DNA from: Kiritimatiellia bacterium
GTDB lineage: Bacteria; Verrucomicrobiota; Kiritimatiellia; CAIQIC01; Lenti-01
Length of the DNA stretch: 64,000 bases
NCBI GenBank assembly: GCA_028681135.1
Contig: JAQUJC010000004.1
Span: forward strand, 8,107-72,106
Direction of reading: 5' to 3'
Notes under the pieces: generated by a model
What the model saw: only the letters and a program-made list of their open reading frames with translations
Told to the model about the DNA's origin: nothing
The model's database searches: none
Shown here: positions 640-20,200 of the stretch, in pieces
Numbering within the stretch: the first letter of the stretch is position 1
Layout of the letters: every line of letters starts with the position of its first letter
Made by a program: the position numbers and the translations under genes

Positions 640-2973
640 TCATTCCACCACGATTTGAACCCCATCGCTAAGGCCGCGGGCGCTGGCGCAGACGATCTGG
701 TGGTGGCCGCGTTCGAGGGGCCAGAAGAGCGGTTGTCCCGAGCGGGACTGTCCCACGGGGCGGTCGTCGATGAACCAATGCAGTGTCTCGTCGGCGCGGT
801 CGGTGGCGGCTTCGAGCGCTAGTTGTTGGCAGAGGGTCTCGTGGCTGGGCATCTGCCGATAGACGCTATCCCGCGCCGGGGTGAGAATCCGCAGTGCGGC
901 CATGGGCGACTCACTGGCCGGTGTCATGCGGCGGTTGAGGAACGACGCGACCGCGGCGGGCCAAACGGCCTCGGGCCCCGTCCGATGCACGGGGCAAGTC
1001 GTATGGCGCGACACCTGGGCAATGCTCCAGTCCTCGATGTGCTGCGTGCAATGCGGTCCCGGTACGCCTCCGCTGACGGCGCATACCGTTCGCAATTCCA
1101 CGCCCGCCGGACGAGCAAAGGCCGGCCCGGTATTATCCGGATAGAGTTGGCGCACCATATCCCATGCGATCGGGGTTGCCGCCAGGCGCCCGACCAGGGT
1201 GTCCGATCCGCTGCCATCGGCATTCCCCACCCAGACCCCCACGACGATGTCCGGATTCCAGGCGACGGTCCACGCATCGCGCAGCCCCGCCGAGGTTCCC
1301 GTCTTCCAGGCCATCGGCGGCAGCCGTACATCCGCCAGATGCCCCGTTGCATCCATTGCACGCTCGTTGCCCGAGAGCATCTCGCTCACCAGCCAGCAGG
1401 CTTCGGGCGAGAACACCGGCTTGAGCGTCAGCGCCGCGGTGGACTCCAGCACCCGCACGGGTGCCCATTGGCCACCCCGCGCCAGACAGGCATAGGCATT
1501 CGCCAGTTCCAGCAGCCGCACCTCCGCGCCGCCCAGCACCAGCCCCAGCCCATAATGCTCCGCGGGGTGCGTCAGGGTCGTCAATCCCACCTCGCATAAC
1601 GTGGCATGGAAGCGCGCCGGTCCCGTCCGGCGCACCACGTCAATGGCCGGTAAATTCAGCGACAAAACCAGCGCCTCCCTCGCGCTGACCACACCGCGAA
1701 ACTCAGGCGAATAATTTTGTGGATCAAAGTCGCGAAATCGCATGGGCACATCGGCCAACATCGTGGCGGGAGTGATGAGGCCCCGGTCGAACGCCAGCGC
1801 ATAGGCAAAGGGCTTGAGGGTAGAGCCGGCGGCGCGGGCCGCGGTAGCACCATTCACCTGCCCGGCCCGCGGCGCGAAATAATCCGGCGAGCCCACCAGC
1901 GCGCGCACTGCGCCAGTCTGCACGTCGAGCACCACAATCGCCCCACTGGTGGCCGCGTTGTCGTTCAGCCGCCGCCGCAAGACGCCCTCCGCTATGCGCT
2001 GCCACTCGGCATCGAGGGTGGTTGTGATCAGGCCCTTTTCACGCGGGGATGTCGGCACCCCGACCCAATCGCAGAAATGTGGCGCGCGGAAGGGATAGCG
2101 CCCCGGACGCAGAGATAGCGGCTGCGCCAGCGCGTCGGCCCGCTGTTGGGGTGTAATCTGTCCGCACGCCTCCATCCGTTCCAGCACATAGGCCTGGCGG
2201 ACGTTGGCCCGCTCGGGGTGCCGATCGGGCCGCAGCCGCGAGGGCGACTGCGGCAACCCGGCCAGCAGGGCGGCTTCGGCCAAACTGAGGTGCGCCGGTC
2301 GCTTCCCAAAATAGCGCTGTGCGGCCGCCTCGATGCCTACGATGTTGCCGCCAAACGGCGCGCGGTCCAGATAATGGGCCAATATCTCGCGCTTATCACA
2401 GCGCCGTTCCAGTTGCAGCGCGCGGAAGGCCTCGATGGCCTTGGTCAGGAGCGTACGCCGCCGGGGGTGGGCCATTCGGATTACCTGAGTGGAGATTGTG
2501 GAGGCCCCCGACACCCGACGCCCCGACCCGATATTCTGTCCGATGGCCCGCACCAGCGCGAGCGGGTCAATCCCGCCATGCTGCCAAAACCGCTGGTCTT
2601 CCGCCGCGACAATCGCCTGGTCAATCCAATGCGATGGATCGGGCTGATACCCCGCTCGGCAATCGAATCCGCCCGCCCCCAGCCGGATCCGCAGGGGGGC
2701 CCCGTGGCGATCCGCCACGACGACCGCCCGCGGCAGGTGATTCAGCGCCGCCTCTGGGAATGGCACCACATGCAATGCAAGCCAGATCGCGGCGGGCACC
2801 AGCAAAACCAAACCCCATACCACGAGACGGCCGTGGCCTGCGGGTAGGGCGAGGCCTCCCCGCCGAGCCGCTTGAATGGATCGGCTCACCGGGACGGTTC
2901 GCCCTACCCCATTTCTGGCTGTCTCGACGCCCCCGTCGGGGGGATGCCGTCTCTTTTGCCGTGGATTCTTCAC
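640..2973 (-). CDS. pbpC: Penicillin-binding protein 1C. It is a bifunctional class A PBP with GT51 transglycosylase and transpeptidase domains.
   Basis: GT51 motifs are present (EDQRFWQHGGIDPLALVRA and GASTISTQV). The transpeptidase STLKPF (SxxK) motif and a C-terminal PbpC-type domain are also present. The start overlaps the stop of the upstream A2M gene by 4 nt at 2970-2973. A2M-pbpC synteny is conserved in E. coli. Confidence 0.85.
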   Translation of the reverse strand: MKNPRQKRRHPPDGGVETARNGVGRTVPVSRSIQAARRGGLALPAGHGRLVVWGLVLLVPAAIWLALHVVPFPEAALNHLPRAVVVADRHGAPLRIRLGAGGFDCRAGYQPDPSHWIDQAIVAAEDQRFWQHGGIDPLALVRAIGQNIGSGRRVSGASTISTQVIRMAHPRRRTLLTKAIEAFRALQLERRCDKREILAHYLDRAPFGGNIVGIEAAAQRYFGKRPAHLSLAEAALLAGLPQSPSRLRPDRHPERANVRQAYVLERMEACGQITPQQRADALAQPLSLRPGRYPFRAPHFCDWVGVPTSPREKGLITTTLDAEWQRIAEGVLRRRLNDNAATSGAIVVLDVQTGAVRALVGSPDYFAPRAGQVNGATAARAAGSTLKPFAYALAFDRGLITPATMLADVPMRFRDFDPQNYSPEFRGVVSAREALVLSLNLPAIDVVRRTGPARFHATLCEVGLTTLTHPAEHYGLGLVLGGAEVRLLELANAYACLARGGQWAPVRVLESTAALTLKPVFSPEACWLVSEMLSGNERAMDATGHLADVRLPPMAWKTGTSAGLRDAWTVAWNPDIVVGVWVGNADGSGSDTLVGRLAATPIAWDMVRQLYPDNTGPAFARPAGVELRTVCAVSGGVPGPHCTQHIEDWSIAQVSRHTTCPVHRTGPEAVWPAAVASFLNRRMTPASESPMAALRILTPARDSVYRQMPSHETLCQQLALEAATDRADETLHWFIDDRPVGQSRSGQPLFWPLERGHHQIVCASARGLSDGVQIVVE

Positions 2974-5900
2974 GGTACGACGTGCACTTCTCCACCGCCG
3001 CCCACGCCGCGGATATCCGGCTCATACATGCCCGAGACCACCACCGGCGGCAGGACATATACCCCCGGCGTCACCGCGCGCACGGCGTAATGGAACTGGG
3101 CCGGTTTCCAAATGGCCCCGGTGAAGATCAGCATCCGGTCATCCCGGGCATCGCGATACTGATCGCCTTCTTTCTTCTGTTTCAACCAGGGCACCTGCTG
3201 GGACGCCGCAAAATTGGGATTTTCGATCTCGAGCCCCGCCGGCAGCAAATCCTCGATCACCAGTTGATCGAGACGATTACCCAGCGGGTCCACGGTCAAC
3301 CGCACCACCCGTAACGCCCCTTGCGGCAGCGCCGTCATGTCGGCCGCATTCCCGGAGAGGTCCAGGAATTCACGCTGAATGGCGACGCCATTGCTCGTCG
3401 CCGTCTCGGGTGTCATTGCGACGCCCTCATGGCGCGCCCACAGGTAGAGTTTGCCGGGGCCGTCATTCTGAACGCGCAGGGGCGCCACCGCACCGGGCCC
3501 CGCCGACCACGTAACATCGTTGGTGGGGCCCACAGTCATGGTGCGGCCATCGGGGAGCGTCACCACGGCAGAAAAGGGTTCTTCCGTATCGGGCAGATAG
3601 CGCGCCAGCTTACCAACGGCCAGCAGCGCGAGTGCATTATCCTGGGTGTTGCCCCAATGCCCATCCCGCTGCCGGTCGCGCAAGGCCTGAGCCAATCGCG
3701 CGACGGCGGCATTATCTGGATCCACCTCCAGCCACGCCGAGAGCAGCAAGGCGGCGTCGCGCACATCACTATCCAAGAGCCGTCCGGGGGTGCGGGTACG
3801 CGACACCGGCAGCGCCAACGTCTCCATCAGTGCCACCGCCTGGCGCGGCTCGCCCGCCAGAATCAGCGCCGCGGCCGTCTGGGCTTTGGCGGCAAAACTG
3901 AGCTGATCGGCCTGCTCGCGCAACCGCGCATTCCAGCCAGCATCCGGCCGTCCCGCCAGCGCCAACACCTGGCAATAGTATGCGCGCATGCCCATCTCGG
4001 TGCGCCAAGTTTCCGGGCTGGCGCCAGGCGGAACTGCGCGATCAAGACGCCCGCGCACCCAGGCCAGGCCCGCCTCGAGTGGGCCCTCCGGCACCGTAAA
4101 CCCGGCAGCTTTGGCCTCGACCAGAAAGTGAATCGTATAGATGGATTCCTCCACAGCGGTTCCTCGCAAGAACGGCCAGAGCGCAAAGCCGCCATTCTCC
4201 TGCTGCATGGACAGCGCCCGCGCAATGGCCTGCGACACGATCATGTCGCAGTCACCCACGGCACGTTTCCCGGGCAGCAGACGCTCCACCCAGTCCTCGG
4301 CGTAGAGCAGCGGGAACGCCTCCGACACCGTCTGTTCGAGACAGCCATAGGGATAGTGAATCAGGTAGTCCAGCGCCCGCCCCACCTGGGCCGAGGGCAG
4401 CGACGACAGCGCACCCGACGCAAACAGCGATTCCGGCAACCAGTCGGCCGGTGCCTCGACATCCAGCGACTCGCCCGGCTTGAGCACCTGGAGGGTCGTC
4501 GCCACGCGAGTGCCAGCCGCGGGCCGCACCGCCAGCTCGATCGTCTCCCGATAGGTTTCGGTGCCCGCCACGATCTCGAGGGTACACAATGCTTTTCCAG
4601 GCCCCGGCCCGGCCGTCAGCGAGAGGGGCAGATGGGCCGCCTCCCCCGCCGCCAAGGTCACGGTCTGCTCGGCCTGCGCGACCTGCAACGGCCCGCCGCA
4701 CGTCACGCGCACGGTGGCCGACTTCGCCTCATCGCTGATATTATGCAACGCCACCGATGCCTCGGCCCGGTCGCCCAGCGCCAGGAACCGCGGCAGCGCG
4801 GGCTGGATCACGACCTCGCGCCGCACCACGACCGCGGTCGAGGTGGACCCGCACTGCGTCGTATTAAATGCGACCGCCATCACTCGCAGTTCGCCGCTGA
4901 ATTCGGGCAGGTCTATCTGAAAGTCTGCGTGTCCCTCCGCATCCAGCGGCACGTCGGCCACCCACAAGGCCAGGGGCTTAAAGCGATTGGCCTTGATGGG
5001 ATTCAGCCGCTTACGCAAAGCGCCCGCCCCATCGCCCCCCGCCGCGGGTGTGCTCACCAGCTCCTCCTCCAGGATCGGCATCAACTCGCTATACAGGTCA
5101 TAAGCCGACGACATCAACGCGCGCTGGGCGGTAAAGAGTTGCAGGGGGTCCGGGGTCTGGAACACCGTCAACAGGCAGATCGCCTCGTCCACGGCCATCA
5201 CGGTTACCCGCCCCGCCGCCGGCGCCCCCGTGGAAGTGCAAACCGTCACAGACCCTGTCAATGGTGCCTGCGGATGCGTCGTTTGGGGTGCATCAATGGT
5301 CACGCGCAACTCCCGCTGGGGCTGCTCCACCGGCAACGCAATAGTCCCGATGGCCCGGTGCGCGCTCCAGACCGCCTCCGCCGTTGCCGGACGAATCAGG
5401 GTCAACGTACACCAGGCGTTGGGCGCGTACAGCGCCTCCACGGGCACCTCGATCTCGGCGGTATTCTTCTCCAGGATGACCACCCGGGCTTCGTGTACGT
5501 GGTCCGTTTCGACCGTCAGCAATGCCCGGCCGGTAAAGGGTGCGCGCACCTGTAAGCGAGCGGTCTCGCCCGCGCGAAACTGCGGCCTGTCCCACGACAA
5601 GTCGATGTGGCCTGGCTTTTCCCGGCTCCAGGCCGCCCACGCCGGATCCGCCGATGCCACCCAAAACGTCAGCCGCGCGGCGGCGCCCGACGCCGGTTCC
5701 ACCGCGGCCAGCATGTACTCACCCGGGGCATCCACGGCAAAGCTCCAGTCCCGCGGCTCGCCCCCCGCTGCGAGGGTATCCTGATGAATCTCGATAACCT
5801 GCCGTTCCGATTTCCATTCATAGAGCCCGACCCGGTTGCGGCGCAGCACCGAACTCCAGGTCACTCGCGACACGGTCAGGACCAGCGGCTTGTCAGCCGT

Positions 5901-6446
5901 GACCGGCGTGCCATCCGGCTGAACCTCGACCACAGCCACGCGTTGGGTCACGCCCACCCGCGGCGCCCGGCCCCACGAGGGTTTCAGGCCCACATAAAAC
6001 GGATACGCATCAACCCGCGCCGACCCATAGGCGGTTACGGCACGCCCGCTGGACTCCATCACGGTGGCACCCAACACCACGCTCAATGCTGCGGGGGGGC
6101 GCCAGGCCTTGCGTGTATCCACCACAAACTGCCCCGCGCCTTCGGCATCAAGGTGCCCCGCGCCAATTTTCCGATGGATGGGGGCAAATTCTTTTTCCGG
6201 ATCGCCGAAAGTCCACCCCGGCCAATTGGAGGGGGAGAATGGGGCCGGCGCGACTGTTGCCATGGCTGTCACCTTGAGACCCGCCGCCGGGGCTCCGAAC
6301 AAATGCTCGCCGTGCGCGTTAAAGGTCAGCACATCGCCCGCCGCGGCCCGCCCCGGCGGTGACTCCACCTCGACACGAATTTGCGGCGGAACAAAGTCTT
6401 CGAGTGCCACCGCGGTCTGCCCCAGCACCGTATGGGTACCCGGCAT
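2970..6446 (-). CDS. Alpha-2-macroglobulin family protein, C-terminal 1158-aa portion. It carries a thioester-type CLEQ motif.
   Basis: The translation shows MG-domain-like repeats, the GCLEQTVSEAFPLLY thioester region, and an alpha-helical TED-like region. It lies in the same reading frame as the upstream ORF 6453..8381, separated from it only by a TAA stop and two codons. Confidence 0.8.
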   Translation of the reverse strand: MPGTHTVLGQTAVALEDFVPPQIRVEVESPPGRAAAGDVLTFNAHGEHLFGAPAAGLKVTAMATVAPAPFSPSNWPGWTFGDPEKEFAPIHRKIGAGHLDAEGAGQFVVDTRKAWRPPAALSVVLGATVMESSGRAVTAYGSARVDAYPFYVGLKPSWGRAPRVGVTQRVAVVEVQPDGTPVTADKPLVLTVSRVTWSSVLRRNRVGLYEWKSERQVIEIHQDTLAAGGEPRDWSFAVDAPGEYMLAAVEPASGAAARLTFWVASADPAWAAWSREKPGHIDLSWDRPQFRAGETARLQVRAPFTGRALLTVETDHVHEARVVILEKNTAEIEVPVEALYAPNAWCTLTLIRPATAEAVWSAHRAIGTIALPVEQPQRELRVTIDAPQTTHPQAPLTGSVTVCTSTGAPAAGRVTVMAVDEAICLLTVFQTPDPLQLFTAQRALMSSAYDLYSELMPILEEELVSTPAAGGDGAGALRKRLNPIKANRFKPLALWVADVPLDAEGHADFQIDLPEFSGELRVMAVAFNTTQCGSTSTAVVVRREVVIQPALPRFLALGDRAEASVALHNISDEAKSATVRVTCGGPLQVAQAEQTVTLAAGEAAHLPLSLTAGPGPGKALCTLEIVAGTETYRETIELAVRPAAGTRVATTLQVLKPGESLDVEAPADWLPESLFASGALSSLPSAQVGRALDYLIHYPYGCLEQTVSEAFPLLYAEDWVERLLPGKRAVGDCDMIVSQAIARALSMQQENGGFALWPFLRGTAVEESIYTIHFLVEAKAAGFTVPEGPLEAGLAWVRGRLDRAVPPGASPETWRTEMGMRAYYCQVLALAGRPDAGWNARLREQADQLSFAAKAQTAAALILAGEPRQAVALMETLALPVSRTRTPGRLLDSDVRDAALLLSAWLEVDPDNAAVARLAQALRDRQRDGHWGNTQDNALALLAVGKLARYLPDTEEPFSAVVTLPDGRTMTVGPTNDVTWSAGPGAVAPLRVQNDGPGKLYLWARHEGVAMTPETATSNGVAIQREFLDLSGNAADMTALPQGALRVVRLTVDPLGNRLDQLVIEDLLPAGLEIENPNFAASQQVPWLKQKKEGDQYRDARDDRMLIFTGAIWKPAQFHYAVRAVTPGVYVLPPVVVSGMYEPDIRGVGGGGEVHVVP

Positions 6447-6452
6447 GGCCAG

Positions 6453-8381
6453 TTAAAAGCGATAGCGCCCCGTCGGCAGATAATCCGGCAAGGTCACCTC
6501 GCAGGTAGCCGACCCCATATCATCCAGCTCAACTGTGATATCCCGGAACAGGTTTCCATCCGGCCGCCAGACGCGCATCAGCGCCGGGAACGGCGCGGGG
6601 GCGCGCATCTGATCGTCACGCGCCAAGACCTGCACAAACACATTTTCGCCCGGACGATAAATGCCGCGTTCGGTAAAGACAGCCGCCTCAAGCTGGCCCG
6701 GTTGCAGATAGGCCCGCCCCCCCGTCCCGGCCGCGGCAGCGACACCGGTGCGCTCCAGGTCAATATAGGTCAAGTCCCCTTCGGTCTCAGCCACCACCAC
6801 AAACGGCGTCTCGCCCTCGGGCAGTACCATACGCGCCAGCCCCTGTTCATCCGTGGCCCCCCGCGCGATGACCTGATTATTGCGGGCATAGACCGTCACC
6901 GCGGCATCGGCAACGGGTTCGGCACTTCCCAGGCGATTGACCCAAGCCAGGACACGCCCTTCGGACACCCGCGTCGCGAGCCCCAAGTCCGTCACAACCA
7001 GCAAACGCCCATCGCCCCGCGCATGTTCCTCGCCCACCTCCAGCCAATAGATGCCGCGCGGCTCGCCTGCCGTCAGCCGCCGCAATTCCACCCGACTGCG
7101 CACGGGCGCCCCATCCGTTGCCGGTGCCAGCGTATTGGTAATCGCGCTGCCGGACCCGGTCAAATCGTCAGCGGTTTTCCCATAATAGCGATATCGTCTG
7201 GTTTCTCTAAGCGCCAATTGCACGAGGTTATTCGCGAAGACGGGACTTAACCGCGCCACATACTGCTCCAAATTCGCCGCCAGCACCGGCACGCACAAGG
7301 CCCCCCCCGGTGCCAGATAGCGCCCCGGCGAATCAACCCGCACGGCTTTTTTACGCGGGGGAAACTGAATCTTGCGGGACAGGGTCTGCGGCAGGCTCGA
7401 CCCATTGGCCGCTGGCAAGCCCTCTTTGAACGTGATGTCATAAATCGCGCCCGGCTGGAAATCGCCCCGCACCAGCAGTCCCTTCCACCAGTATGCATTC
7501 ACCGACTCCACCGTAAACGCCACCGCGGGATCAACCGTCACATACTCCTTGATCTCATTCCACTCTGGCCGGGCCGTAAAATCAGCCCGTAGAACCAGCG
7601 AATCGAACGCCGGGCTTTCCACCTCCACATTACGCAACAACATATTCATTTCCATCTTGAGCGACCCCTTCTTGCGGCGGTCGGTCGGCTGGGAATCGCT
7701 TGCGGAAGGCAACCCTGCCTCCAGCACATACTCCAGTTTCTCGCCCAGCACCGGGCGGGTTTGCAGCAGCAAGACATTGGGTTCCGGCGTCCTGTTCAGT
7801 TGATACGCCACCTCGCCCTGCCCCGGCACCGACAGCGTCAGGAACCGTGTCATCTGGGCGCGGTCAGGCTGGTCACTGAAAGTCAGACGCACGATCAGCT
7901 CACGCTCCGGCGACACATCAACCTGTTCCACCTTTCGCAGCCGCAGAATACGCTTCACCACGGGCGCCGACTTTTCCGTGGTCTTGGGCGCTGCCGCCCC
8001 CGCCAACTCCATCCGCGTCAGATGATCTGTCACGCGCCACACGCCATAGCCATTCACCAGCAGGAAGGCCAGCGCCAGGGCGAACCACCGCCCCGCCCGG
8101 CTTCGGTTCAGGTCCTGCCCGGCCATCACCGCCCCGCCCACGGCCACCTCGGCCGCGGCTTCGGCGAAGGTCTCCGGCGGGTCCATTTCCGCCAAAATAT
8201 GCTCGATGGTTTCCAGGCCCTCTTCGCCCCGCGCGGCAGCCCGGCGCCAGGCCTCGGCAATATGGTCCCGTAGCCCCGCCACTACCTCGTGACGCACCGC
8301 CGGGGGCTTGTGCGCCAAATGACGCTCCACCTCATGCAGATACGCCTCCACCCGCTGAACGACCGCTTTGTTATTCTTCAT
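6453..8381 (-). CDS. Alpha-2-macroglobulin N-terminal portion. It is fused to an N-terminal cytoplasmic DUF1700/HAAS-like helical domain and a single TM anchor. The C-terminal portion is separated by an in-frame TAA.
   Basis: The N-terminus reads MKNNKAVVQRVEAYLHEVERHLAHKPPAVRHEVVAGLRDHIAEAWRRAAARGEEGLETIEHILAEMDPPETFAE, which has the DUF1700/HAAS pattern. A TM helix (WFALALAFLLVNGYGVW) follows. After that come A2M-type MG domains (GIYWLEV..LLVVTDLGLATR and RGIYRPGENVFVQVLARD). The ATG at 8379-8381 overlaps the PadR stop at 8378-8380 (ATGA coupling). The longer track ORF starting at 8540 would overlap PadR by 160 nt and is rejected. Confidence 0.75.
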   Translation of the reverse strand: MKNNKAVVQRVEAYLHEVERHLAHKPPAVRHEVVAGLRDHIAEAWRRAAARGEEGLETIEHILAEMDPPETFAEAAAEVAVGGAVMAGQDLNRSRAGRWFALALAFLLVNGYGVWRVTDHLTRMELAGAAAPKTTEKSAPVVKRILRLRKVEQVDVSPERELIVRLTFSDQPDRAQMTRFLTLSVPGQGEVAYQLNRTPEPNVLLLQTRPVLGEKLEYVLEAGLPSASDSQPTDRRKKGSLKMEMNMLLRNVEVESPAFDSLVLRADFTARPEWNEIKEYVTVDPAVAFTVESVNAYWWKGLLVRGDFQPGAIYDITFKEGLPAANGSSLPQTLSRKIQFPPRKKAVRVDSPGRYLAPGGALCVPVLAANLEQYVARLSPVFANNLVQLALRETRRYRYYGKTADDLTGSGSAITNTLAPATDGAPVRSRVELRRLTAGEPRGIYWLEVGEEHARGDGRLLVVTDLGLATRVSEGRVLAWVNRLGSAEPVADAAVTVYARNNQVIARGATDEQGLARMVLPEGETPFVVVAETEGDLTYIDLERTGVAAAAGTGGRAYLQPGQLEAAVFTERGIYRPGENVFVQVLARDDQMRAPAPFPALMRVWRPDGNLFRDITVELDDMGSATCEVTLPDYLPTGRYRF

Positions 8382-8719
8382 GTCCCGGATTCCTTGTCCT
8401 GCTTCAATTGCTCCATCGCTGCCACCAACATCGGCCAATAGGCATTCATTTCCGCCAGGCGCACCTTGCCCCGCGGCGTCAACGTGAAATAGCGCCGCGG
8501 CGGCCCCGACCCCGATGGCACGTCGCGCGACTTCAGACACCCCTCCGAGCGCAGCCGTCCCAAAATCGGATACACGGTGCTCTCCGAGACCGACAAATCC
8601 TCGATCCGCTTCAGAGCCTGGACGATCTCATAGCCATAGTTCTCCCCCCGCCGCAGCACCAGCAGCACACAGTACTCCAGCAACCCCTTGCGTAATTGGG
8701 TGATCCACCCTTCGATCAT
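8378..8719 (-). CDS. PadR-family transcriptional regulator.
   Basis: The 113-aa product (GLLEYCVLLVLRRGENYGYEIVQALKRIEDLSVSESTVYPILGRLRSEGCLKS) is a typical PadR winged-HTH. Its stop overlaps the start codon of the downstream HAAS-domain gene. Confidence 0.85.
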   Translation of the reverse strand: MIEGWITQLRKGLLEYCVLLVLRRGENYGYEIVQALKRIEDLSVSESTVYPILGRLRSEGCLKSRDVPSGSGPPRRYFTLTPRGKVRLAEMNAYWPMLVAAMEQLKQDKESGT

Positions 8720-8815
8720 GAGCTACTCCGCATCATGTATTACGTAATACATACTACCGGGTCAGCCGTCAAGCCCCTTTCCAATAATTAGAGTCTTGGG
8801 TCTCCCATTGCGCGG

Positions 8816-8927
8816 TTTTCCATAGCGTGGAAAAATCACGAAAAAGTTTTCCATAGCGTGGAAAATTCGCCCAAACGTTTTCCATAGCGTGGAAAAAACG
8901 CAAAAAAGTTTTCCATAGCGTGGAAAA
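8816..8927. promoter_or_regulatory. Array of four identical 19-bp palindromes (TTTTCCATAGCGTGGAAAA) at an exact 31-bp period, lying in the divergent PadR / Ser-Thr-kinase intergenic region. It is a putative multi-site operator.
   Basis: The units start at 8816, 8847, 8878 and 8909. The palindrome is perfectly conserved while the 12-bp A-rich spacers diverge. The 31-bp period is about three helical turns. Confidence 0.7.
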
Positions 8928-9093
8928 CCGGCGCGATACCAAGGGGCCCATGAGACCGTCTGAAAGGGCTACGGGCCGACCCCTTTCCTCCAGGCCCCCA
9001 GTCCTTATTCATCGCCCTGATTCAGGATTTAGTTCCATCGCAATGCAATTTAGCAGTTTGCTTTCCTGTGCGTTTGAAGCAAAATGGCGCTTT

Positions 9094-11394
9094 ATGGAAA
9101 CTGACACTCGGTCATCTGCTCACCCCGACCTTCCGGGCTATGAGATTCAGCAGCGTCTGGGCACTGGGGGTACGGCCACGGTCTGGCTGGCCCGACAGAT
9201 ATCCCTTGATCGCGTCGTGGCCATCAAGGTGCTGTCCCCCAAACTGCTAACCGACCAGGACGCCCGAACTCAATTCCAGGAAGAAGCGCGCGCGGCCGCC
9301 AAAATTTCGCAAGCGGCCATTGTCAGTATTCTGGATTTTGGGGAACACGACGGCCGCCTGTACTATGTCATGGAATATGTGGCCGGCACCAACCTCGCCG
9401 AATGGATACAGCAAAATCAGCGCATGGCCCACGGCCAGGTGCTCAAACTCGCTGAGATCATCGCCAACGCGCTCGACGCGGTGTGGCGCGAGACCTCCCT
9501 GATCCACTGCGACATCAAACCCGGCAACATCTTGCTCGGTGCCGATGGGGCGGTCAAGCTGACCGACCTGGGACTCGCCCGCATTGCCGGCTCCGCCGCC
9601 ACCCGCAGCGTCTCCGAAAATATTGAGGGGACCCCCTCGTACATTGCGCCCGAACAAATCGAAGGCCTCGAGCCCGACTGTCGCTCCGACATCTATTCGC
9701 TGGGCCTCAGCCTCTACCATCTTCTTACCGGCAACCCGCCCTTTGCCGATCGTGCCCTTCAGGATATTCTCGACGCCCAACAATCCGATTATCTCCCCGA
9801 TCCCTGCGACCTACTGCCGCGCCTGCCGGTCTCCTACGGGTGGTTATTGGCCAAAATGACCGCCAAAAACCCCGCCAAACGCCCGCAAAATTGGAGCGAA
9901 GTGCTCAAGGACCTCCACCAGATCAAGACTGGCAAATCGCCCCTGCCGCCCTATCCCGGCGAAGACGAAAGCACTATCCTGCTCAATCCCCGCCATCGCC
10001 CCGCCGCGCGCGCCAATACCATCAACCTATCCGCCGCCGGCAAAAAGGCCATCACGGTCTCCGCGTCCCACAACGCCCTCATCAGCCAACAGAAGCGCGG
10101 CTCTGCTTCCGCGCGGGCATCTTCCGGCGGGGGCTGTCTCCGCTTCCTGTTCTTTTTGATATTTTTGGCTGCCGTTCTGGGGGGCATCTGGCTATTGGCC
10201 TTCAGGAACCACCCCGAGCGCGTGGCGCAGCTAAAGGCCGTCCTCCAAGGCCACCCCCCACCCCCCCCCGCCCAGGCACCCGAACTGCAGCAACGCGACT
10301 CTGACCCGCCCCCCCCCGCTCCCGCGCCGGTCGAGTCGGTCGAGGAGGGGCCAGCCGCGGAACCCGAATCGTTGTCCGCCAGTACCGGCACCGTCACCCC
10401 CGGTGCCTGGAACCATCCCGGGTTCATCCAGGCCGCCAATCTCTTCAACGAAACTCTCACCCAATATCAGCAGCACCTGAAAAAGCCCGATCCCGCCAAT
10501 CCGGCCCTGCCTGGTCTGATCGCCGATGCCCAATATGCGGCCTTGCTGTTTGAAACCATCCGCGCCGACGCCCCCGACTCCGTGCCCGTCACCCACTATG
10601 CCAACCAGTGCTATCAACTGGTCAACGATCTGCGCCGCGCGCGCATGACGCTGGATGCCAAGCGCAATCGGCATGATCTGGCCCCCAAAAAACGTCATCC
10701 CGAGCTAGCCCCCTACCCCCTCCCCGAGGGTGACTCCACCGACCCCTTTGCGATGCACCACGGGCAATACGGCTATGCCTGGGATACCCTGCCCGCCCCG
10801 ATTGATCGTCCGGAGACGACCGAATTTATTTTGCTGCTCTCCGCCATTGCCACCCCCTCCCCCGACACCCGCATCCAATCCGGGTCGTATTTGCATGGCC
10901 CCTTGCGCGGCCTTGTGAGCCTGGAGGAGGCCCGTCGCCTCTTGAAGGTGCCCCCCGAACCCCGGACCCCCATCGAAGGCGCCCCCTTCCCCTATGGTGG
11001 ATTCTTCCAGACCACCTACCCCGCCAGCAAGCTCGGCTCCATCGGCCCCGGACAGCCGACCTATCCGCATATCCGGTTGATTACCGACGCAGAAGACCAA
11101 CTCGTCGCAGTTCAGCTCATTGATGAACACCCCGCCCCTCCCCTGCAAACGTCTCCGATGGCCTTTTCCACGGCCTCCCAGATCATGGACTTTGTCACCG
11201 GCCGCACGCTGCCCTCGAAGGGCGACATTCGCGCCCACCACAACACCCTGCGCGGCACCGGCACCTTACGCATTGACTCCGAAGTCGCCGATTTTGCCTC
11301 AGAATCCGATCCCACGCCAGTATTCCGCTCTGTGCTGCTGCTGCCCCAGCCCGTCGCCAACAATTTATTGTATCATCTGATGGGCACTCGCTAA
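9094..11394 (+). CDS. Hanks-type serine/threonine protein kinase. It has one TM helix and a ~380-aa C-terminal extracytoplasmic domain of unknown type.
   Basis: Kinase motifs are present: GTGGTATVW (glycine loop), AIK, HCDIKPGNILL, DLGLAR and GTPSYIAPE. A TM helix (LRFLFFLIFLAAVLGGIWLLAF) and a Pro-rich linker follow. The start is placed at the METDTR ATG (9094) because the track start at 8920 would lie inside the operator array. An alternative start is at 9042. Confidence 0.8.
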   Translation: METDTRSSAHPDLPGYEIQQRLGTGGTATVWLARQISLDRVVAIKVLSPKLLTDQDARTQFQEEARAAAKISQAAIVSILDFGEHDGRLYYVMEYVAGTNLAEWIQQNQRMAHGQVLKLAEIIANALDAVWRETSLIHCDIKPGNILLGADGAVKLTDLGLARIAGSAATRSVSENIEGTPSYIAPEQIEGLEPDCRSDIYSLGLSLYHLLTGNPPFADRALQDILDAQQSDYLPDPCDLLPRLPVSYGWLLAKMTAKNPAKRPQNWSEVLKDLHQIKTGKSPLPPYPGEDESTILLNPRHRPAARANTINLSAAGKKAITVSASHNALISQQKRGSASARASSGGGCLRFLFFLIFLAAVLGGIWLLAFRNHPERVAQLKAVLQGHPPPPPAQAPELQQRDSDPPPPAPAPVESVEEGPAAEPESLSASTGTVTPGAWNHPGFIQAANLFNETLTQYQQHLKKPDPANPALPGLIADAQYAALLFETIRADAPDSVPVTHYANQCYQLVNDLRRARMTLDAKRNRHDLAPKKRHPELAPYPLPEGDSTDPFAMHHGQYGYAWDTLPAPIDRPETTEFILLLSAIATPSPDTRIQSGSYLHGPLRGLVSLEEARRLLKVPPEPRTPIEGAPFPYGGFFQTTYPASKLGSIGPGQPTYPHIRLITDAEDQLVAVQLIDEHPAPPLQTSPMAFSTASQIMDFVTGRTLPSKGDIRAHHNTLRGTGTLRIDSEVADFASESDPTPVFRSVLLLPQPVANNLLYHLMGTR

Positions 11395-14222: not shown

Positions 14223-17200
14223 CTACTCCACGTACCGAATACGGAAGAACTTGGTGCCCCGACCGGGTGCGGGCGACACCGTGTTAGTATAAACCCCAGG
14301 CTGGGTGACCGCCGCCCGGAATTCCTCTTTCCACCCGCCTGGGGCCAGATTGGTGGCCGATTGGACCACGACGACTTTAGGCATGAGGCCAAGCACCTCG
14401 TAGGTCAACAAGAGCTGCTCTCCACTCTTCACCAGTGGTCCAACTGTCAGTTTAGGAATAGCCAGGGGCGCTGGATAGGTTTGGGTGGGATCTCTTCCCT
14501 GCGCAAAATTATCAATGTCTTTCCAGCCATCGCCACTCAAGTTGGACTGACCGTTCATGGTGGTGAGATTGCCCGCATAGCGATATTCATACGAGTCGAC
14601 GATTCCATCGTTATCGGTATCGGCATCGTAGATGACCAGATCGTTACCTGAATATTCGGCTAAGTTCCTGATCTTTATCCGTTTTTCAGCATAATCCACG
14701 CTATAGATAGTTGGGGTGTCAACGGTCCGGTCGTCCCGGCTGCCCTTGACCAACCCCCAGTTCTCGCCTTCATCCAGCACGCCATTGTTGTTTCGGTCGT
14801 AGAAGGCACGGACATGGAAATCACCAATCTCAACCCCCATCAGACTATACTCCCAATAGCCCGACCGGGGAATGGCCAACGCCTTGATCAAGACGCCGTT
14901 GCCGGAATACGCTTCGGCCACGATCTGAGCGTTAGATTCCCATCCATAGTAGTAAATGCGCCCCTTAATCATGGCGGCCCCGCCCTTTGCCGGCGGCTTG
15001 AAGCTCACCGCGAAATTCACCCAGTCGCTGGTGACGGATGCGCGCGGGTTGTAAGCCCGGACCTGGATGCGATACTGGCCATTCGTGAGAGCTCCGAAGC
15101 CAGCCAGCAACGGCAAATCAATTTCCGCATTCCCATCCAGGTTCACATAAGGCCGGTATTGGGTGGTGTTCAACACCGTCTGACCCGTTGCCGCATTCTG
15201 GATTTGAATCTGAATCCTGGTGGTATTAGGGTCCAGTTTCATGCGCAGTTTTTCGCGGGCAAAAATAAGATTGCCCGTCGGATATTCAACCACCGGCTTC
15301 GCTAGGGAGGACGGATAGGCGATCGCATTGGTCCCGCTGGCGAACACAACGCCATCGACAGTTCCAACCGTCCACTCATAGGAGCCGTACATCGGCTCGA
15401 TACCGCCCAGTTTCAGATCCATTTCCATAATGTTCGGGCGGCCCAGCGACTCAAGGTTGCGGGTGGTCGAGTAGATGATCGGTTTGCCCGCCTCGCTCAG
15501 CGCTTTGATCGCGACCCGGTAGGTGGTTCCAGCGACGTGCGCGATCGCCTCTTGAATCGCACCCATCTGCTGTTCCCAGGAGAAACGAATATATCCGGCG
15601 GGCTTGTCAGTTAGAGGAATCTTGATGTTCACTGCACCCAACTGGATGTCTTCTATACCGCTCTCGCTAAAGCCGAGCCACTCACCTGCATTCCACTTGC
15701 CATCGGCATTCATATCGATAAACGCCATGAAAATATTGGGACCTTTGTGTACATGGCCAATCGACCATTCAGTGACAGTTGCCATCGTTCCACTTTCAAA
15801 GACGCTTTGGACGGGAATCAGGACTTGAGCGTCTGGTGCCTGCATTTCAAGATCGGAAAAGGCCCACACAATCAAAGCCACAGCATCCGGCTCCAGATAA
15901 CCATCATCTGATATCTCAAATTCGGTAGCCACTACATATTCAAGAGCTTGGCCATAAAAATTGAACTTAAACTGGGGCAAAGGAAACGATTTTCCATCGT
16001 CTGGCCTTGTCGGGGATACAATGGTTCTATCCACAATTTCCCATTGGACATCCCAAGTTTGATTGCTTGCTATCCAGTTTGATACTGCTTGATAGCTATA
16101 ATCAACACCGGTTCCCAGATACTCGGACAAGTTATCCCAGCCATCGTTATCTGGATCGAGGTTGGGATCGTATCGCCGCGGGCTGCAGGCTAGCGGGAAG
16201 ATCGACTCCCAGGCATCGGGCATTTTGTCGGTATCCGTGTGCAGGGTGCCATAGGTCGCACCAGTGGTGGGGCTGTCATAGTCGCCTCGACCATCGCCAT
16301 CGGAATCGAATCGATTGGGATCAGTTCCGGCCTGCAATTCCGCCCAGTTGTTCAGACCGTCGTGGTCTGGGTCGCCCCAGGCACCAAAAGTGAAGTCGGC
16401 CGGGTCGTAGACATAGCCGACCTCGTCGCCAGGCGAGCTATTCCCATCGGGGTCCATGCCATTCAAGATATCCCACCAGTTGGGAATGCCATCGTAGTTG
16501 TTGTCTTCCTGGAAGGGATATTCGGCCGGATCCAACTCTACGAACTGGACATCGCTGATCATTTGACCGGCATAATCCCAATCCAATGGATTCTGGTAAT
16601 CTTCCAGAGTGAACCCGCCATCATCCGCCGGATAATAGCCGGCTAAGGCCAACCGATAGATCTGGATGGGATCCGTGAGGATCGAGGGATAATCGCCGGT
16701 CTCCATGCGCATGGCCGGAAAAATATACACTCCCGGTTCCTCTGCGTTGTCCTTTACTATTGCGCGATCTTCCGCCAACTCGCTGCGCTGGAAGTCAAAG
16801 TTGAAGTAGGTGATCAAACCGGGTTCGTTGCCGTACAGGCTTTGCTTGTTATAGAGGTTCAGCTCTCCGCGGGACAAACCGCGATTCCAGACCCGGACTT
16901 CGTCGGCATCGGCCGCAAGCTGATGGCCAATCGAGAGCGGACCTGCCAGGCTGCGAACCCCCCAGTTCACAATTTTCTCTCCCAAGGGCACCAGGGTAGG
17001 ATCCTGGACGGCATCGATGATTCCATCTACATATAAGGCCGCCTTGTTGGCATCACGCACATAGGCGACATGATGCCACTCCCCATCATTAATGGGCATG
17101 GCCCCGACGATATTATTGACGGTGGGATTCAAGATGACCTCAGACTCATCGATCACACCTTCTTCCCCTTCTTCCTCCTTGGTATAGGCGAGCACCCAGC

Positions 17201-20200
17201 GTCCGATCAGGGTGCCATCGGATTGCATGCCGAGATAATAGTTAAAATCCTCGCCGCCGAGATCGGTACCGGTATTCCAGCGGGCGATAATCGTTCCAGG
17301 CGACTGGCTCGTTGTTTTCACCCAGGCTTCCAGCGTCCAAGTGTCCAGGGAATCGATTGTAATGCCGGTAACGGGGTCCGCCGTCAAGCAGTTCTGCCGC
17401 AAATGATCATTGCCGCCGGTGGTGCGCAGGACGGCTGGATCCAAGGCGCCGTAGCCCAGGAACAGGTTGCGGCCCTTGAAGGCGGCAATTTCGGCATCCG
17501 AGCGGGAAATGGCCCAAACGCGGATTTCCTTGAGGTCGCCTACATATCCATTACCACCGAACACGAGGTCGCCAGGGCCTTGGGCCGGGACCAGTGTGGC
17601 GGGGCCATAGTTATTCCGCTTGCCATCCACAAACAGCGACAACACGCCCGTCGCCAAATCAAAACGAGCCGCCACATGGGTCCATTCGGAGAGCGCCAGG
17701 GGCGTCAACCCAACGATTTCCTTGATGACTCCGCCCGCGCCGCTTTGGAAGCGCACATAGGGCATGGCGTTGGTAGTCAATCCCAGTTCATAGTTGATCC
17801 GGCCTGTGGCTTGAACCTGGCGCGAGACCAAAGAAACGCGAGTGGCCGGATAGGCGGCCGGGCGAACCAGCGCTTCGATCGTCCAGTTGGTCAAGCTGTG
17901 GCGTTCGGTCTCTTCCAAGCCGATCTTGTCGCTAACCACCACCTGCCCGACACCCCCGCCATCGCCAAATCGCAGCGCCCGGAAAATCATCGGGCTGTAG
18001 GAACGCCTTGGATCACTTTCCCGATTATCTACCCCACGGACTTCGTCCCCATCGTTAATTTCATCGTCATCGGTATCCATTCTGGTGGGATCCGTGAAAT
18101 AGATATTCAACTCGTCATAGTTGGACAGGTCATCGCCATCGGAATCCCAATCGGCGTCGGAGATAATGCCGGCGGGATCGAGTGAGAACTCGTTGAACGG
18201 ATCGACCCCCAGTCTGTAGGACCAATAGTTGTTGATGCCGTTCCCGTTGGGATCCAGGTTGGCAATGGAGTCACCCAACGGATCGTACCCGTATTGCTGG
18301 TACCACCAATCGGGAATGCCATCGCCATTGGAGTCATAGACTGTGTTGGTTCCCGGTCCGGCCCCATCCCACAATTCAACAACGGAGTCGATGCGCGCAA
18401 AACGCAACGGCAGCAAGTCATTGAACAATGGCGACTGGGTGGCGGGGTCGAATGCCCGAGCGACCGGATACACATCGGGGTGGCGCTCCATCCGGTAAAA
18501 ATTGGCATGATAGTAGCCAAGGTTGTAAGGGTTAGCGGTATTCGGGAAGGAGCGGGTCAGGGTGTTGTCTGCCAGCGAATAGGTGGAGGTATGGTAGGGA
18601 GAATCGGCGGGAGGATCGAGCGGCAGCCGGGCGACAAGGTTAACGATCCAAGGAACATACAGGTAGTTGTTGTACACCAGTGACCGATCGGCGGCCGTAC
18701 CCCACCACGGAACATGGGGATAGGAACCATCGTTCGGGCGTCCATTTAGAAGATCAAATCCAACCGGAAGAATGCCCTCGCTTGAGGGGTCCAGCAGGTT
18801 GTCGAAGTTATAGAGATACTTGAGTTCGGGCGTGGCATTGGTGGACAGCAGCGGACGTTGGTACGTCTTGACATCGGCCATGCGCAACTTGCGAGACATG
18901 TCGCGTTGCACTTCTGTCATGGTTTTTGCGCCATTCCAAATTCGAACTTCATCCACCCACCCTACAAGGAAGCTGTGCAGATCCGGGGCCGTGAAGGTGG
19001 TTCCCGCCTGAGATCCGACCCAGACCGGCTGGCCATTGACCCGGCCGACGGGATTGCGGTCGGCAGCGCCGACCACGAGCGGGGCATCAAACGTGAAGCC
19101 AGGATTGACATCCAGATAAATCGGATCCGGCGTGGACCAGCCATTGGCAGGACGCTCGGCGGAAGCAATACTCGCACGCATTTCGCCGTTCACATAGAGG
19201 AACAATTTCTTTTGGGCACCATCGTAGACCCCGGAGAGGTGCTGCCACCGGTCGGCTTCCAGCGGGTGGATGCTTTTGGCGATGACATCCTGATACTCGA
19301 GTCCGTCAAAGCCCGCACCTGTATAGGAAACCAAAGGTCGTCCATCGGCATCGATCGCCAGCCGGAAGTTGCGGCGAATGCCTTCCGGAAAACTCATGAC
19401 GTTTCCATCGGGAATCCAGACTGGGCGTTCAACCACGACTTGGAGCGCGCCGGAGGCGGGCTCCACAGGCTTGACCCACGCCTCGACCGTGAATTCGGTC
19501 AGATCGTTCAAGCCATGCAGGAAACTGCCCCGGGTACGAGCGGCGGCATCGCCGTTGAGGTACAAAGCACGGCGGCGCGGTGGTGCCTCCGAACTCAACG
19601 GATCAGTGCTGCCCGGACTTGCTTGCGAATCCACGAGTTCGGCCCGGTCGCCCAGCATGTCGGCATCAGTGTCGAAACCTTCGGAATTTTCGAACGAGAA
19701 CAGATAACTGGGCGGTGTCCAGCCCGAAGGGCCGTAGTACCATCCGGGTGCCAACAAGGCTAGAGAACCCAGGTCGTAGTACAGGTTTACAAAGCTACTC
19801 TGATAGCTGGGGTCGGTGATCCAGGAAGGGGATGGGTCCGTATGATAATACTTGGGCGGGGGCGCATTGGGTTGAAGCGATTCCTCCCAGTTGGGCAATC
19901 CGTCCTGGTCAGGATCGGCAAAGGGCGACCCCGCAACATAGGGGGCCACACGGATGTCAAAGGTGGGGGGCATCCCCGCCAAGACCGTTGCGCCCAAAAC
20001 CATGGAGTTGTGCACATCCAGTACGCCAAACATAGGATTGAGACCGTGGTAGATCTCCCAATAGTCATCCATGCCGTCGAGATCGGTGTCGAGAAGCCGA
20101 GGATTCGTCGAGGTGTAGCGGCTGTTAACGGGTGGGATGAAGAAGAACGGCACCGTATTGACATTGAGGTGCCAATCCCAGGCGAAAGGAGTCCCGGTGA

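What the first reader, a model, noticed from the sequence alone, without database searches (positions are those of the whole stretch)
2970..8719. PadR regulator coupled to a HAAS/DUF1700-anchored alpha-2-macroglobulin plus PbpC: a candidate protease-sensing signalling and defence module
The bacterial A2M-PbpC pair is an established envelope defence and repair duo, in which a thioester bait protein traps attacking proteases next to a peptidoglycan synthase. In E. coli, A2M is a plain lipoprotein. Here the A2M N-terminus instead begins with a cytoplasmic DUF1700/HAAS-type helical domain and one TM helix. Its ATG overlaps the stop of a PadR-family regulator (ATGA at 8378-8381). The PadR plus DUF1700 membrane-protein gene pair is an established one-partner signalling arrangement, in which the membrane protein sequesters or releases the HTH regulator. 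Fusing that module to a ~1700-aa periplasmic protease trap implies a specific mechanism. Bait cleavage or thioester conformational change in A2M could be transmitted across the membrane to control PadR, and through PadR the nearby operator array, the kinase or the envelope genes. I do not know of this architecture being described.
Basis: partly seen in the sequence, partly recalled or inferred. Interest (0 to 1): 0.78.

Follow-up and report, generated by a model that had tools for sequence, protein, structure and literature searches.

The report
PadR-linked membrane-anchored protease trap operon
A group of uncultured Kiritimatiellia-type bacteria carry a protease-trapping alpha-2-macroglobulin whose membrane anchor has a cytoplasmic domain of a type always encoded next to a PadR gene regulator. 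This suggests the trap controls its own production, but in this genome the trap gene is cut by a premature stop codon.

Summary
The described genes are real. On the minus strand lie padR (8378-8719), an alpha-2-macroglobulin (A2M) gene beginning with a HAAS domain and one hydrophobic helix (2970-8381), and pbpC (640-2973).

- **Conservation.** The same three-gene order occurs in 22 species-representative Kiritimatiellia/Verrucomicrobiota MAGs, in L001, and in four distant metagenomic relatives.
- **Linkage.** Four informative A2M relatives that keep the helix but lack HAAS also lack padR.
- **Operator.** A dyad-symmetric element (ATGTATTACGTAATACAT, 8735-8752) lies between a -35-like TTGAC and the ribosome-binding site in 23 loci. 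It occurs once per locus.
The window's A2M is broken by an in-frame TAA at codon 643 (6453-6455). A conspecific contig (98.96% nt identity) has CAA there and an intact 1803-aa gene.
- **Unsupported.** The repeat array and the kinase are not part of the module.

Best reading: a PadR-autorepressed a2m-pbpC operon whose input reaches PadR through the A2M's own HAAS domain. Protease attack as the signal is plausible but inferred, and the poorly conserved linkers on both sides of the helix argue against rigid conformational coupling.

I found no description of this fusion. I rate it a new variant of two known kinds, interest about 0.6.

The parts
8767..8772 (-). -35-like hexamer TTGACG of the padR operon promoter
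   Evidence: CTTGAC is conserved at the same distance from the start codon in all 23 aligned upstream regions, while the sequence further upstream is unrelated. The simple sigma-70 scan did not call a canonical -10.
8735..8752 (.). Dyad-symmetric putative PadR operator ATGTATTACGTAATACAT (perfect 18-bp palindrome), between the -35-like hexamer and the ribosome-binding site
   Evidence: Conserved in position and nearly in sequence in 23 loci. A single copy in the window and in each locus. Distant loci have an analogous TACTA-N9-TAGTA dyad at the same place. Binding by PadR is inferred.
8726..8729 (-). GGAG ribosome-binding site inside the conserved block GATGCGGAGTAG upstream of padR
   Evidence: Read from the sequence and conserved in the aligned upstream regions.
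8378..8719 (-). padR: a 113-aa short-type PadR winged-helix regulator
   Evidence: Pfam PadR E 7e-21. Best solved relatives are about 110-aa PadR proteins such as 5h20 and 4esf. Mean pairwise identity of 84% among the clade's PadR proteins. Annotated as a PadR family regulator of a Kiritimatiellia MAG.
8378..8381 (-). ATGA overlap of the padR stop and the a2m start (translational coupling)
   Evidence: The same 4-nt overlap is seen in L001, L025, L026 and L035.
8157..8345 (-). HAAS domain (residues 13-75), cytoplasmic three-helix module
   Evidence: PF22564 38.6 bits against a cut-off of 27. AF2 helices at 5-21, 27-50 and 56-65 with pLDDT around 70-84. HAAS is the best Pfam family for 10 of 10 distant homologues.
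8025..8087 (-). Single hydrophobic helix (residues 99-119, WFALALAFLLVNGYGVWRV...), the presumed N-in signal anchor
   Evidence: Hydropathy, three Arg in the 15 residues before the helix, and no Cys. It is the most conserved segment of the protein (82% pairwise identity, 11 of 22 invariant). The same motif heads the HAAS-less relatives.
6453..8381 (-). a2m 5' part as encoded here: 642-aa HAAS-TM-MG fragment ending at a premature stop
   Evidence: Two N-terminal beta-sandwiches at 148-340 plus bMG3 and MG2. The best Foldseek hits are ECAM and Salmonella A2M.
6453..6455 (-). In-frame TAA (codon 643): a nonsense mutation or base-call error
   Evidence: Relatives have Glu. Conspecifics have Gln. 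L035 has CAA (98.96% nt identity over 8186 nt, no gaps).
2970..6446 (-). a2m 3' part (1158 aa): bMG5, bMG6, bait-region domain, A2M, thioester domain, bMG10. It is in frame with the 5' part.
   Evidence: Pfam. ECAM/YfhM and Salmonella A2M match at E 1e-85 to 1e-88. The RDDR motif is present.
4332..4343 (-). Thioester motif CLEQ (residues 1347-1350 of the read-through protein)
   Evidence: GCLEQ is present in all 18 full-length relatives.
640..2973 (-). pbpC: class A PBP with a BiPBP_C domain. Its start overlaps the a2m stop.
   Evidence: Pfam Transgly, Transpeptidase and BiPBP_C. It lies downstream of a2m in every locus long enough to show it.

Best explanation
**What it is.** This is a three-gene operon, padR - a2m - pbpC. 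It is ancestral to a clade of Kiritimatiellia and related PVC bacteria.

**How it most likely works.**
- PadR binds the dyad-symmetric element that lies between the -35-like hexamer and the ribosome-binding site, and represses its own operon.
- The A2M is a type I (thioester) bacterial macroglobulin. It is held in the inner membrane by one conserved helix instead of a lipid anchor.
- In front of that helix it carries a cytoplasmic HAAS domain, the partner module of PadR regulators.
- The HAAS domain is therefore the input device through which the A2M, or the membrane around it, sets PadR activity.
- The most likely logic is on-demand resupply. When the single-use trap is sprung or the envelope is attacked, the HAAS-PadR contact changes, repression is relieved, and more A2M and PbpC are made.
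- Both linkers next to the helix are poorly conserved. The signal is therefore more likely passed by clustering or oligomerisation through the Asn-containing helix, or by proteolytic processing of the anchor, than by a rigid push-pull movement.

**Status in this genome.** The a2m gene carries a CAA-to-TAA change at codon 643. If that change is real, only a HAAS-TM-MG stub would be exported, and the bait and thioester part would stay in the cytoplasm.

**Shown:** the domains, the gene order, the HAAS/PadR co-occurrence, the operator conservation and the stop codon.

**Inferred:** PadR binding to the operator, HAAS-PadR contact, the nature of the signal and its direction.
For: - **Domains:**
- **Collinear padR-a2m-pbpC** in L001-L023, in distant L024-L029 and in L035. 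PadR was present in 21 of the 21 genome-scan loci with upstream sequence.
- **Co-absence:** HAAS-less relatives with the same helix have pbpC but no padR.
- **Breadth:** 20 of 77 full-length representatives carry HAAS, confirmed with Pfam on 10 of them. They lie mostly in one part of a rough tree.
- **Operator:** conserved, single copy per locus.
- **Co-inheritance:** PadR and A2M distances co-vary at r 0.94, so the two are inherited as a unit.
- **Helix:** it is the most conserved segment of the protein.
- **Literature:** the HAAS-PadR dyad model (PMC11237479; PMC12419801). Listeria PadR-like LltR autorepresses an operon with a DUF1700 protein about 150-fold (PMC6624303). lftS (DUF1048) is genetically tied to lftR (PMC4517056). 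Bait cleavage causes a global conformational change in ECAM (PMC4498604).
Against: - There is no experimental or structural evidence here for HAAS-PadR contact.
- The linkers on both sides of the helix are the least conserved parts of the protein (33-41% identity). That is hard to reconcile with allosteric coupling.
- The published HAAS model has the signal release PadR. With a repressor, that would switch the operon off on attack, so the direction of control is unresolved.
- The helix is short (about 17 apolar residues) and is followed by a conserved small-x-small N-x-Y-G. Signal-peptidase cleavage that would separate HAAS-TM from the A2M body is not excluded.
- The mirror-tree test gave no HAAS-specific signal.
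- No canonical -10 hexamer was found.
- The window's own copy is interrupted.
Confidence: 0.5

Rival explanations
1. General envelope or membrane-stress sensor. The HAAS-helix unit senses membrane perturbation, as proposed for HAAS proteins fused to PspC or LiaF-type modules. The A2M body would be only the effector that happens to be fused to the sensor, so protease capture is not the signal.
For: - Described HAAS-PadR dyads are tied to membrane-stress modules.
- The helix is the most conserved segment, and the linkers to the A2M body are loose.
- The same helix motif exists in relatives that have neither HAAS nor padR.
Against: - A single helix with no other membrane domain is a minimal sensor.
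- HAAS was added specifically to A2M in this lineage and has been retained across 27-70% divergence.
- No Psp or Lia genes appear in the neighbourhoods.
Confidence: 0.2
2. Dosage gauge with no external signal. HAAS constitutively titrates PadR, so translationally coupled PadR and A2M set a fixed membrane level of A2M, or report successful membrane insertion.
For: - The ATGA coupling of padR and a2m is conserved in several loci.
- There is a single operator per locus.
Against: - Pure sequestration by the product of the repressed operon gives positive feedback, which is a poor homeostat.
- HAAS-less relatives manage without padR.
Confidence: 0.12
3. Cleaved signal sequence. Signal peptidase cuts after the conserved N-x-Y-G. 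This would free a soluble periplasmic A2M and leave a roughly 113-aa HAAS-helix stub. The amount or turnover of the stub, for example by intramembrane proteolysis, would then control PadR and so report export flux rather than trap state.
For: - The hydrophobic core is short, and small residues sit at -3 and -1 (G/A/T-x-G/A) in both HAAS and HAAS-less relatives.
- The stretch after the helix is poorly conserved.
Against: - Signal peptides are rarely the most conserved part of a protein (82% identity).
- The helix lies 98 residues from the N-terminus.
- AF2 draws one continuous helix over residues 97-130, though at low confidence.
- No dedicated predictor was available.
Confidence: 0.1
4. In this particular genome the module is a recently inactivated gene, so nothing described above operates here.
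For: - The in-frame TAA.
- The identical 642-aa product is annotated in a second MAG.
- The downstream part has no export signal.
Against: - This is the only defect in 1803 codons, and the sequence is 99% identical to intact conspecific alleles.
- It could be a base-call or consensus error, or a minority allele.
- This rival bears on the status of this copy only, not on what the family does.
Confidence: 0.35

Closest known systems
Type I (thioester) bacterial alpha-2-macroglobulin with PBP1c: E. coli ECAM/YfhM-PbpC and Salmonella Sa-A2M
   Same: - CxEQ thioester, bait-region domain and the bacterial MG domain series.
- pbpC lies immediately downstream.
- The protein is tethered to the inner membrane and faces the periplasm.
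- Sequence match E about 1e-88.
   Different: - The anchor is a conserved transmembrane helix, not a lipoprotein lipobox (no Cys in the first 200 aa).
- A cytoplasmic HAAS domain precedes the anchor.
- A dedicated regulator gene is translationally coupled upstream.
- No regulator or signalling role has been described for the enterobacterial proteins in the papers read.
HAAS-PadR-like wHTH dyads (Ravi et al. 2024, PMC11237479; Burroughs et al. 2025, PMC12419801), for example Listeria LltR-Lmo0600 and LstR-Lmo0421
   Same: - A standalone short PadR directly upstream of a membrane protein whose N-terminus is a HAAS domain.
- An autoregulated operon is expected.
- HAAS is never seen here without padR.
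   Different: - The described sensor partners are multi-TM or intracellular modules (PspC, LiaF-TM, Toastrack, FtsX, FtsW/RodA, VanZ, pentapeptide repeats).
- Here the partner is a single-pass helix joined to a roughly 1680-aa periplasmic suicide protease trap.
- This partner appears neither in the paper's text nor in its one held supplementary file.
Type II bacterial A2M: MagD in the Pseudomonas magABCDEF operon
   Same: An inner-membrane-associated periplasmic macroglobulin that works with partners encoded in the same operon.
   Different: MagD lacks the thioester, sits in a six-gene operon without pbpC, and has no HAAS or PadR. The window protein has CLEQ and pbpC.

Membership tests
Type I bacterial alpha-2-macroglobulin | CxEQ thioester motif in a thioester domain | tested here: met
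   GCLEQ at residues 1347-1350. Conserved in 18 relatives.
Type I bacterial alpha-2-macroglobulin | Bait-region domain and the bacterial MG domain series (bMG3, MG2, bMG5, bMG6, A2M, bMG10) | tested here: met
   All Pfam hits are above their cut-offs. ECAM and Sa-A2M match at E 1e-85 to 1e-88.
Type I bacterial alpha-2-macroglobulin | Gene adjacent to pbpC (PBP1c) | tested here: met
   pbpC overlaps the a2m stop. It is conserved in all loci long enough to show it.
Type I bacterial alpha-2-macroglobulin | Lipoprotein signal peptide with a lipobox cysteine (as in YfhM and Sa-A2M) | tested here: not met
   No Cys in the first 200 residues. A HAAS domain and a hydrophobic helix at 99-119 take its place.
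Type I bacterial alpha-2-macroglobulin | Uninterrupted reading frame | tested here: not met
   TAA at codon 643 in this window. The frame is intact in relatives and conspecifics.
Type I bacterial alpha-2-macroglobulin | Covalent protease trapping after bait cleavage | not testable with these tools
   Needs biochemistry.
HAAS-PadR two-partner signalling dyad | HAAS domain (three-helix module) at the N-terminus of a membrane protein | tested here: met
   PF22564 38.6 bits against a cut-off of 27. Three helices in the AF2 model. HAAS is the best Pfam family for 10 of 10 distant homologues, and 5 of them reach the cut-off.
HAAS-PadR two-partner signalling dyad | Standalone PadR-like wHTH gene in the same neighbourhood | tested here: met
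   padR lies directly upstream in every HAAS-A2M locus with upstream sequence: 21 of the 22 genome-scan loci (L022 starts inside the gene) plus L001, L024, L025, L027, L029 and L035. It is absent from 4 HAAS-less relatives.
HAAS-PadR two-partner signalling dyad | Conserved GxP kink motif in the third helix | tested here: inconclusive
   The aligned position reads M-D-P-P or D-x-P in most members, and G-S-P in one. A proline-containing motif is conserved, but the glycine mostly is not.
HAAS-PadR two-partner signalling dyad | Physical HAAS-PadR interaction that changes with a signal | not testable with these tools
The mirror-tree test was uninformative.
PadR family, short (about 110 aa) subfamily | Winged HTH plus a single C-terminal helix, about 110 aa | tested here: met
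   Pfam E 7e-21 over residues 18-90. Solved PadRs of 98-117 aa are the best matches.
PadR family, short (about 110 aa) subfamily | Binds a dyad-symmetric operator in its own promoter (autorepression) | tested here: inconclusive
   A conserved perfect 18-bp palindrome sits between the -35-like hexamer and the ribosome-binding site. Binding itself was not tested.

The most novel reading that the evidence does not exclude
A thioester protease trap serves as the ectodomain of a one-step transmembrane receptor. Capture of an invading protease by the A2M would be converted, through its own anchor helix and HAAS domain, into release or capture of a PadR repressor. The cell would then transcribe more trap and more peptidoglycan synthase exactly when the trap is consumed. 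This would be a bacterial counterpart of damage sensing through thioester proteins, and the first known regulator and inducing signal for the A2M-PbpC pair.
Probability: 0.3. Interest if true: 0.8.

Novelty: new variant of a known kind. Interest (0 to 1): 0.6.

Why it matters
- The role of bacterial A2M-PbpC as a periplasmic defence and repair pair has remained a proposal since it was first suggested from gene adjacency. The papers read here name neither a regulator nor an inducing signal.
- A lineage in which the trap itself carries the partner domain of a transcription factor, with a recognisable operator, gives a direct experimental handle. One can ask what switches the operon on, using an intact allele in a heterologous host.
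- It also extends the HAAS-PadR dyad, so far tied to multi-TM or intracellular sensors, to a very large periplasmic ectodomain on a single helix. That constrains how HAAS signalling can work.
- Public annotation currently labels these genes only as 'alpha-2-macroglobulin family', 'MG2 domain-containing' or 'hypothetical'.

Tried and rejected
1. **Second PadR-HAAS pair near 19.0-19.3 kb.** Weak tblastn hits (E 0.15 and 1.2) lie inside a 2681-aa ORF. I treat them as chance.
2. **PadR control of the 4x array and the kinase.** The array motif (TTTTCCA-N5-TGGAAAA) differs from the padR dyad. It is present in only 6 of the 23 related loci held at that point, at varying positions. The kinase is not a conserved neighbour.
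3. **The array as a replication origin.** Its half-sites resemble DnaA boxes, but GC skew stays negative across the whole window with no switch.
4. **Mirror-tree co-evolution of PadR with HAAS.** Every domain correlates at about 0.9 with PadR, and the partial correlation for HAAS is only 0.17. This shows inheritance as a unit and nothing more specific.
5. **Sigma-70 consensus scan.** It did not call the padR promoter. The -10 remains undefined.
6. **AF2 model of the 642-aa part.** The six-sequence alignment gave a mediocre model (mean pLDDT 57). It is good for secondary structure only, and Foldseek TM-scores are low even though ECAM and Sa-A2M are the top hits.
7. **Sequence search of HAAS-TM against the PDB.** Nothing found.
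8. **First whole-protein tree.** It timed out. A fast alignment and neighbour-joining tree replaced it and is only rough.
9. **Literature searches for PadR or HAAS together with macroglobulin.** They returned only unrelated papers.
Full report
**1. What is in the window**

Four reading frames lie head to tail on the minus strand.

- 8378-8719 encodes a 113-aa protein that matches Pfam PadR (E 7e-21). It also matches solved short PadR regulators of about 110 aa.
- Its TGA stop overlaps the ATG of the next frame, as ATGA at 8378-8381.
- That frame (to 6453) starts with a HAAS domain: PF22564, residues 13-75, 38.6 bits against a gathering score of 27.
- After the HAAS domain come an Ala/Gly-rich linker and a single hydrophobic stretch at residues 99-119 (WFALALAFLLVNGYGVWRV). 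Three arginines lie in the 15 residues before it, and there is no cysteine in the first 200 residues. The macroglobulin domains bMG3 and MG2 follow.
- An AlphaFold2 model from a shallow alignment is mediocre overall (mean pLDDT 57). It shows three helices at 5-65, a long helix at 97-130 and two beta-sandwiches at 148-340. Its best Foldseek matches are E. coli ECAM and Salmonella A2M.
- The frame 2970-6446 carries bMG5, bMG6, the bait-region domain, A2M and bMG10. It has the thioester motif GCLEQ (4332-4343). It matches YfhM/ECAM and Sa-A2M at E about 1e-88.
- 640-2973 is a PbpC-type class A PBP with the BiPBP_C domain. Its start overlaps the a2m stop.

**2.

The two macroglobulin frames are one gene interrupted by an in-frame TAA at 6453-6455. 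The sequence reads ...GRYRF*LAMPG....

- Eighteen relatives have single ORFs of 1797-1805 aa, with Glu at that position.
- The window comes from a Kiritimatiellia MAG (proteins MDD2239266-8, contig 72.8 kb).
- Proteins 99.1-99.8% identical from other assemblies read Gln there.
- A conspecific contig, L035, is 98.96% identical over 8186 nt without gaps. It has CAA where the window has TAA.
- The identical 642-aa truncated product is also annotated in a second MAG (MDD4342345.1). The change may therefore be a real allele rather than a random error, but only read mapping can settle this.
- If it is real, this strain would export only a HAAS-TM-MG stub. The bait and thioester part would have no export signal.

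**3. Is the arrangement conserved?**

- A scan of one genome per species found 22 loci, all MAGs labelled Verrucomicrobiota, Kiritimatiellia or Lentisphaerae. They share the HAAS-helix-MG N-terminus at 49-69% identity, with one at 34%.
- tblastn with the window proteins shows padR, a2m and pbpC collinear in every locus where the contig allows. PadR was found in 21 of 21 loci with upstream sequence. The divergent Ser/Thr kinase of the window appears in none.
- A search of 1.84 billion representative proteins with residues 1-330 found 168 relatives. Of the 77 that are at least 1300 aa long, 20 carry the HAAS domain by a local profile.
- Pfam HAAS is the best family for all ten distant N-termini tested, and five of them reach the gathering score.
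- The other 57 start directly with the same helix motif, (R)WFxLAxxFLxVNxYGxW. HAAS was therefore added to an A2M subfamily that was already anchored by this helix.
- In a rough neighbour-joining tree the HAAS forms lie mostly in one part of the tree.
- Four distant HAAS forms (27-38% identity over the matched stretches, 1755-2303 aa) all sit in padR-a2m-pbpC operons.
- Four informative HAAS-less relatives have pbpC but no padR. A fifth lies at a contig edge.
- HAAS and padR thus appear and disappear together. This is the strongest evidence that they work as a pair.
- All named members belong to Kiritimatiellia, Verrucomicrobiota or Lentisphaerota MAGs.

**4. The control region**

- Aligning the 110 nt upstream of padR from 23 loci shows unrelated sequence up to a conserved block: CTTGAC-N11-GTATTaTGTATTgCGTAATACATGATGCGGAGTAG-N3-ATG.
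- In the window the core is a perfect 18-bp palindrome, ATGTATTACGTAATACAT (8735-8752). It lies between the -35-like TTGACG (8767-8772) and the GGAG ribosome-binding site (8726-8729).
- It occurs once in the 64-kb window and once per locus.
- Distant loci have TTGCA followed by a TACTA-N9-TAGTA dyad at the equivalent place.
- From memory, ATGT...ACAT dyads are typical PadR operators.
- The position fits autorepression, as shown genetically for the Listeria PadR-like repressors LltR, LstR and LftR (PMC6624303).
- The simple sigma-70 scan found no canonical -10.

**5. How it probably works**

- The HAAS-PadR dyad was defined computationally as an alternative to two-component systems. In that definition HAAS is always encoded next to a standalone PadR and is fused to a sensor (PMC11237479). 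The stated model is that a stimulus releases PadR bound to the HAAS domain (PMC12419801).
- Experimental support is limited to two findings. One is autorepression of PadR operons that include DUF1700 proteins. The other is a genetic link between lftR and the DUF1048 gene lftS (PMC4517056).
- On the A2M side, bait cleavage triggers a global conformational change in ECAM (PMC4498604). The A2M-PbpC defence and repair idea is still a hypothesis (PMC5764988).
- Putting these together, I think the operon is autorepressed by PadR and that the A2M's own HAAS domain delivers the input. On-demand resupply of a single-use trap is the most sensible logic.
- Two observations shape the mechanism:
  - The helix is the most conserved segment of the whole protein, at 82% pairwise identity with 11 of 22 residues invariant, including a mid-helix Asn.
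  - The cytoplasmic and periplasmic linkers next to it are the least conserved, at 41% and 33%.
- This argues against a rigid piston. It favours helix-mediated association, or proteolytic processing of the anchor, as the coupling step.
- The direction of control is unresolved. Release of a repressor on attack would be counter-productive.

**6. Rivals**

- The HAAS-helix unit senses general membrane stress, and the A2M is only the output.
- HAAS titrates PadR as a dosage gauge.
- Signal peptidase cuts after the conserved N-x-Y-G, so that a HAAS-helix stub, not the A2M, is the regulator's partner. I could not run a topology or signal-peptide predictor, so this third rival stays open. The high conservation of the helix argues against a disposable signal peptide.
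- Separately, this genome's copy may be a fresh pseudogene.

**7. Comparison with known systems and novelty**

- The protein meets the sequence criteria of a type I bacterial A2M: thioester, bait region, MG series and pbpC adjacency. It does not have the lipoprotein anchor.
- The gene pair meets the definition of a HAAS-PadR dyad, except that the GxP motif is mostly D-x-P. Physical interaction could not be tested.
- Searches of the held literature found no description of a macroglobulin fused to HAAS or linked to PadR. This is absence in a partial library, not proof of novelty.
- I rate it a new variant of two known kinds. It is moderately surprising and experimentally approachable with an intact allele.

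**8. Other observations**

- The four-copy array at 8816-8927 (TTTTCCACGCTATGGAAAA, 31-nt period) is not the PadR operator.
- Similar arrays, often perfect TTTTCCACAnTGTGGAAAA palindromes with 22- or 31-nt spacing, occur in six related loci. Several lie just upstream of padR or just downstream of pbpC.
- The half-sites resemble DnaA boxes (from memory), and one unit scores as terminator-like.
- There is no GC-skew switch in the window.

Noticed in passing
window 8816-8927; also L001 21157-21245, L002 11496-11563, L003 590-635, L004 9514-9559 and 17701-17746, L017 11909-12028, L018 9455-9530: Arrays of 2-5 copies of a 19-bp palindrome, TTTTCCA-N5-TGGAAAA, with 22- or 31-nt spacing. In relatives the unit is often TTTTCCACAnTGTGGAAAA, whose halves resemble DnaA boxes. 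Several arrays sit at the ends of the padR-a2m-pbpC operon: upstream of padR in the window, L004 and L018, and just after pbpC in L002, L004 and L017. The motif differs from the PadR dyad. There is no GC-skew switch here. One unit looks terminator-like. The function is unknown.
   Followed up: partly
window 8025-8087 (residues 99-119) and the N-termini of P0034, P0035, P0045, P0057 and others: The anchor helix motif (R)WFxLAxxFLxVNxYGxW, with a mid-helix Asn, is the most conserved part of the protein. It is shared by A2M relatives with and without HAAS. This suggests a specific helix-helix partner or self-association, rather than a passive anchor or a disposable signal peptide.
   Followed up: partly
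L031 9442-10176; L033 5730-6749: In HAAS-less relatives other envelope-defence genes sit next to a2m. A PliI-type lysozyme inhibitor lies between a2m and pbpC in L031, and a weak omptin-like protein follows a2m in L033.
   Followed up: no
window 8920-11394 (+): A divergent Ser/Thr protein kinase gene (Pkinase E 5e-44). Its longest ORF starts inside the last repeat of the array, so the real start is probably further downstream. It is not a conserved neighbour of the operon in any related locus.
   Followed up: partly
window 14223-22268 (-) and 22984-31914 (-): Two giant ORFs of 2681 and 2976 aa. The first has an N-terminal signal-like sequence and many Asp-rich repeats. They were not analysed beyond noting that weak PadR and HAAS hits inside the first are chance.
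   Followed up: no
L001 12808-13209; L023 10001-17700: The a2m genes of these two long-contig MAGs are broken by frameshifts, with several in L023. These are probably assembly errors, which shows that interrupted a2m calls in MAGs need read-level checks.
   Followed up: no
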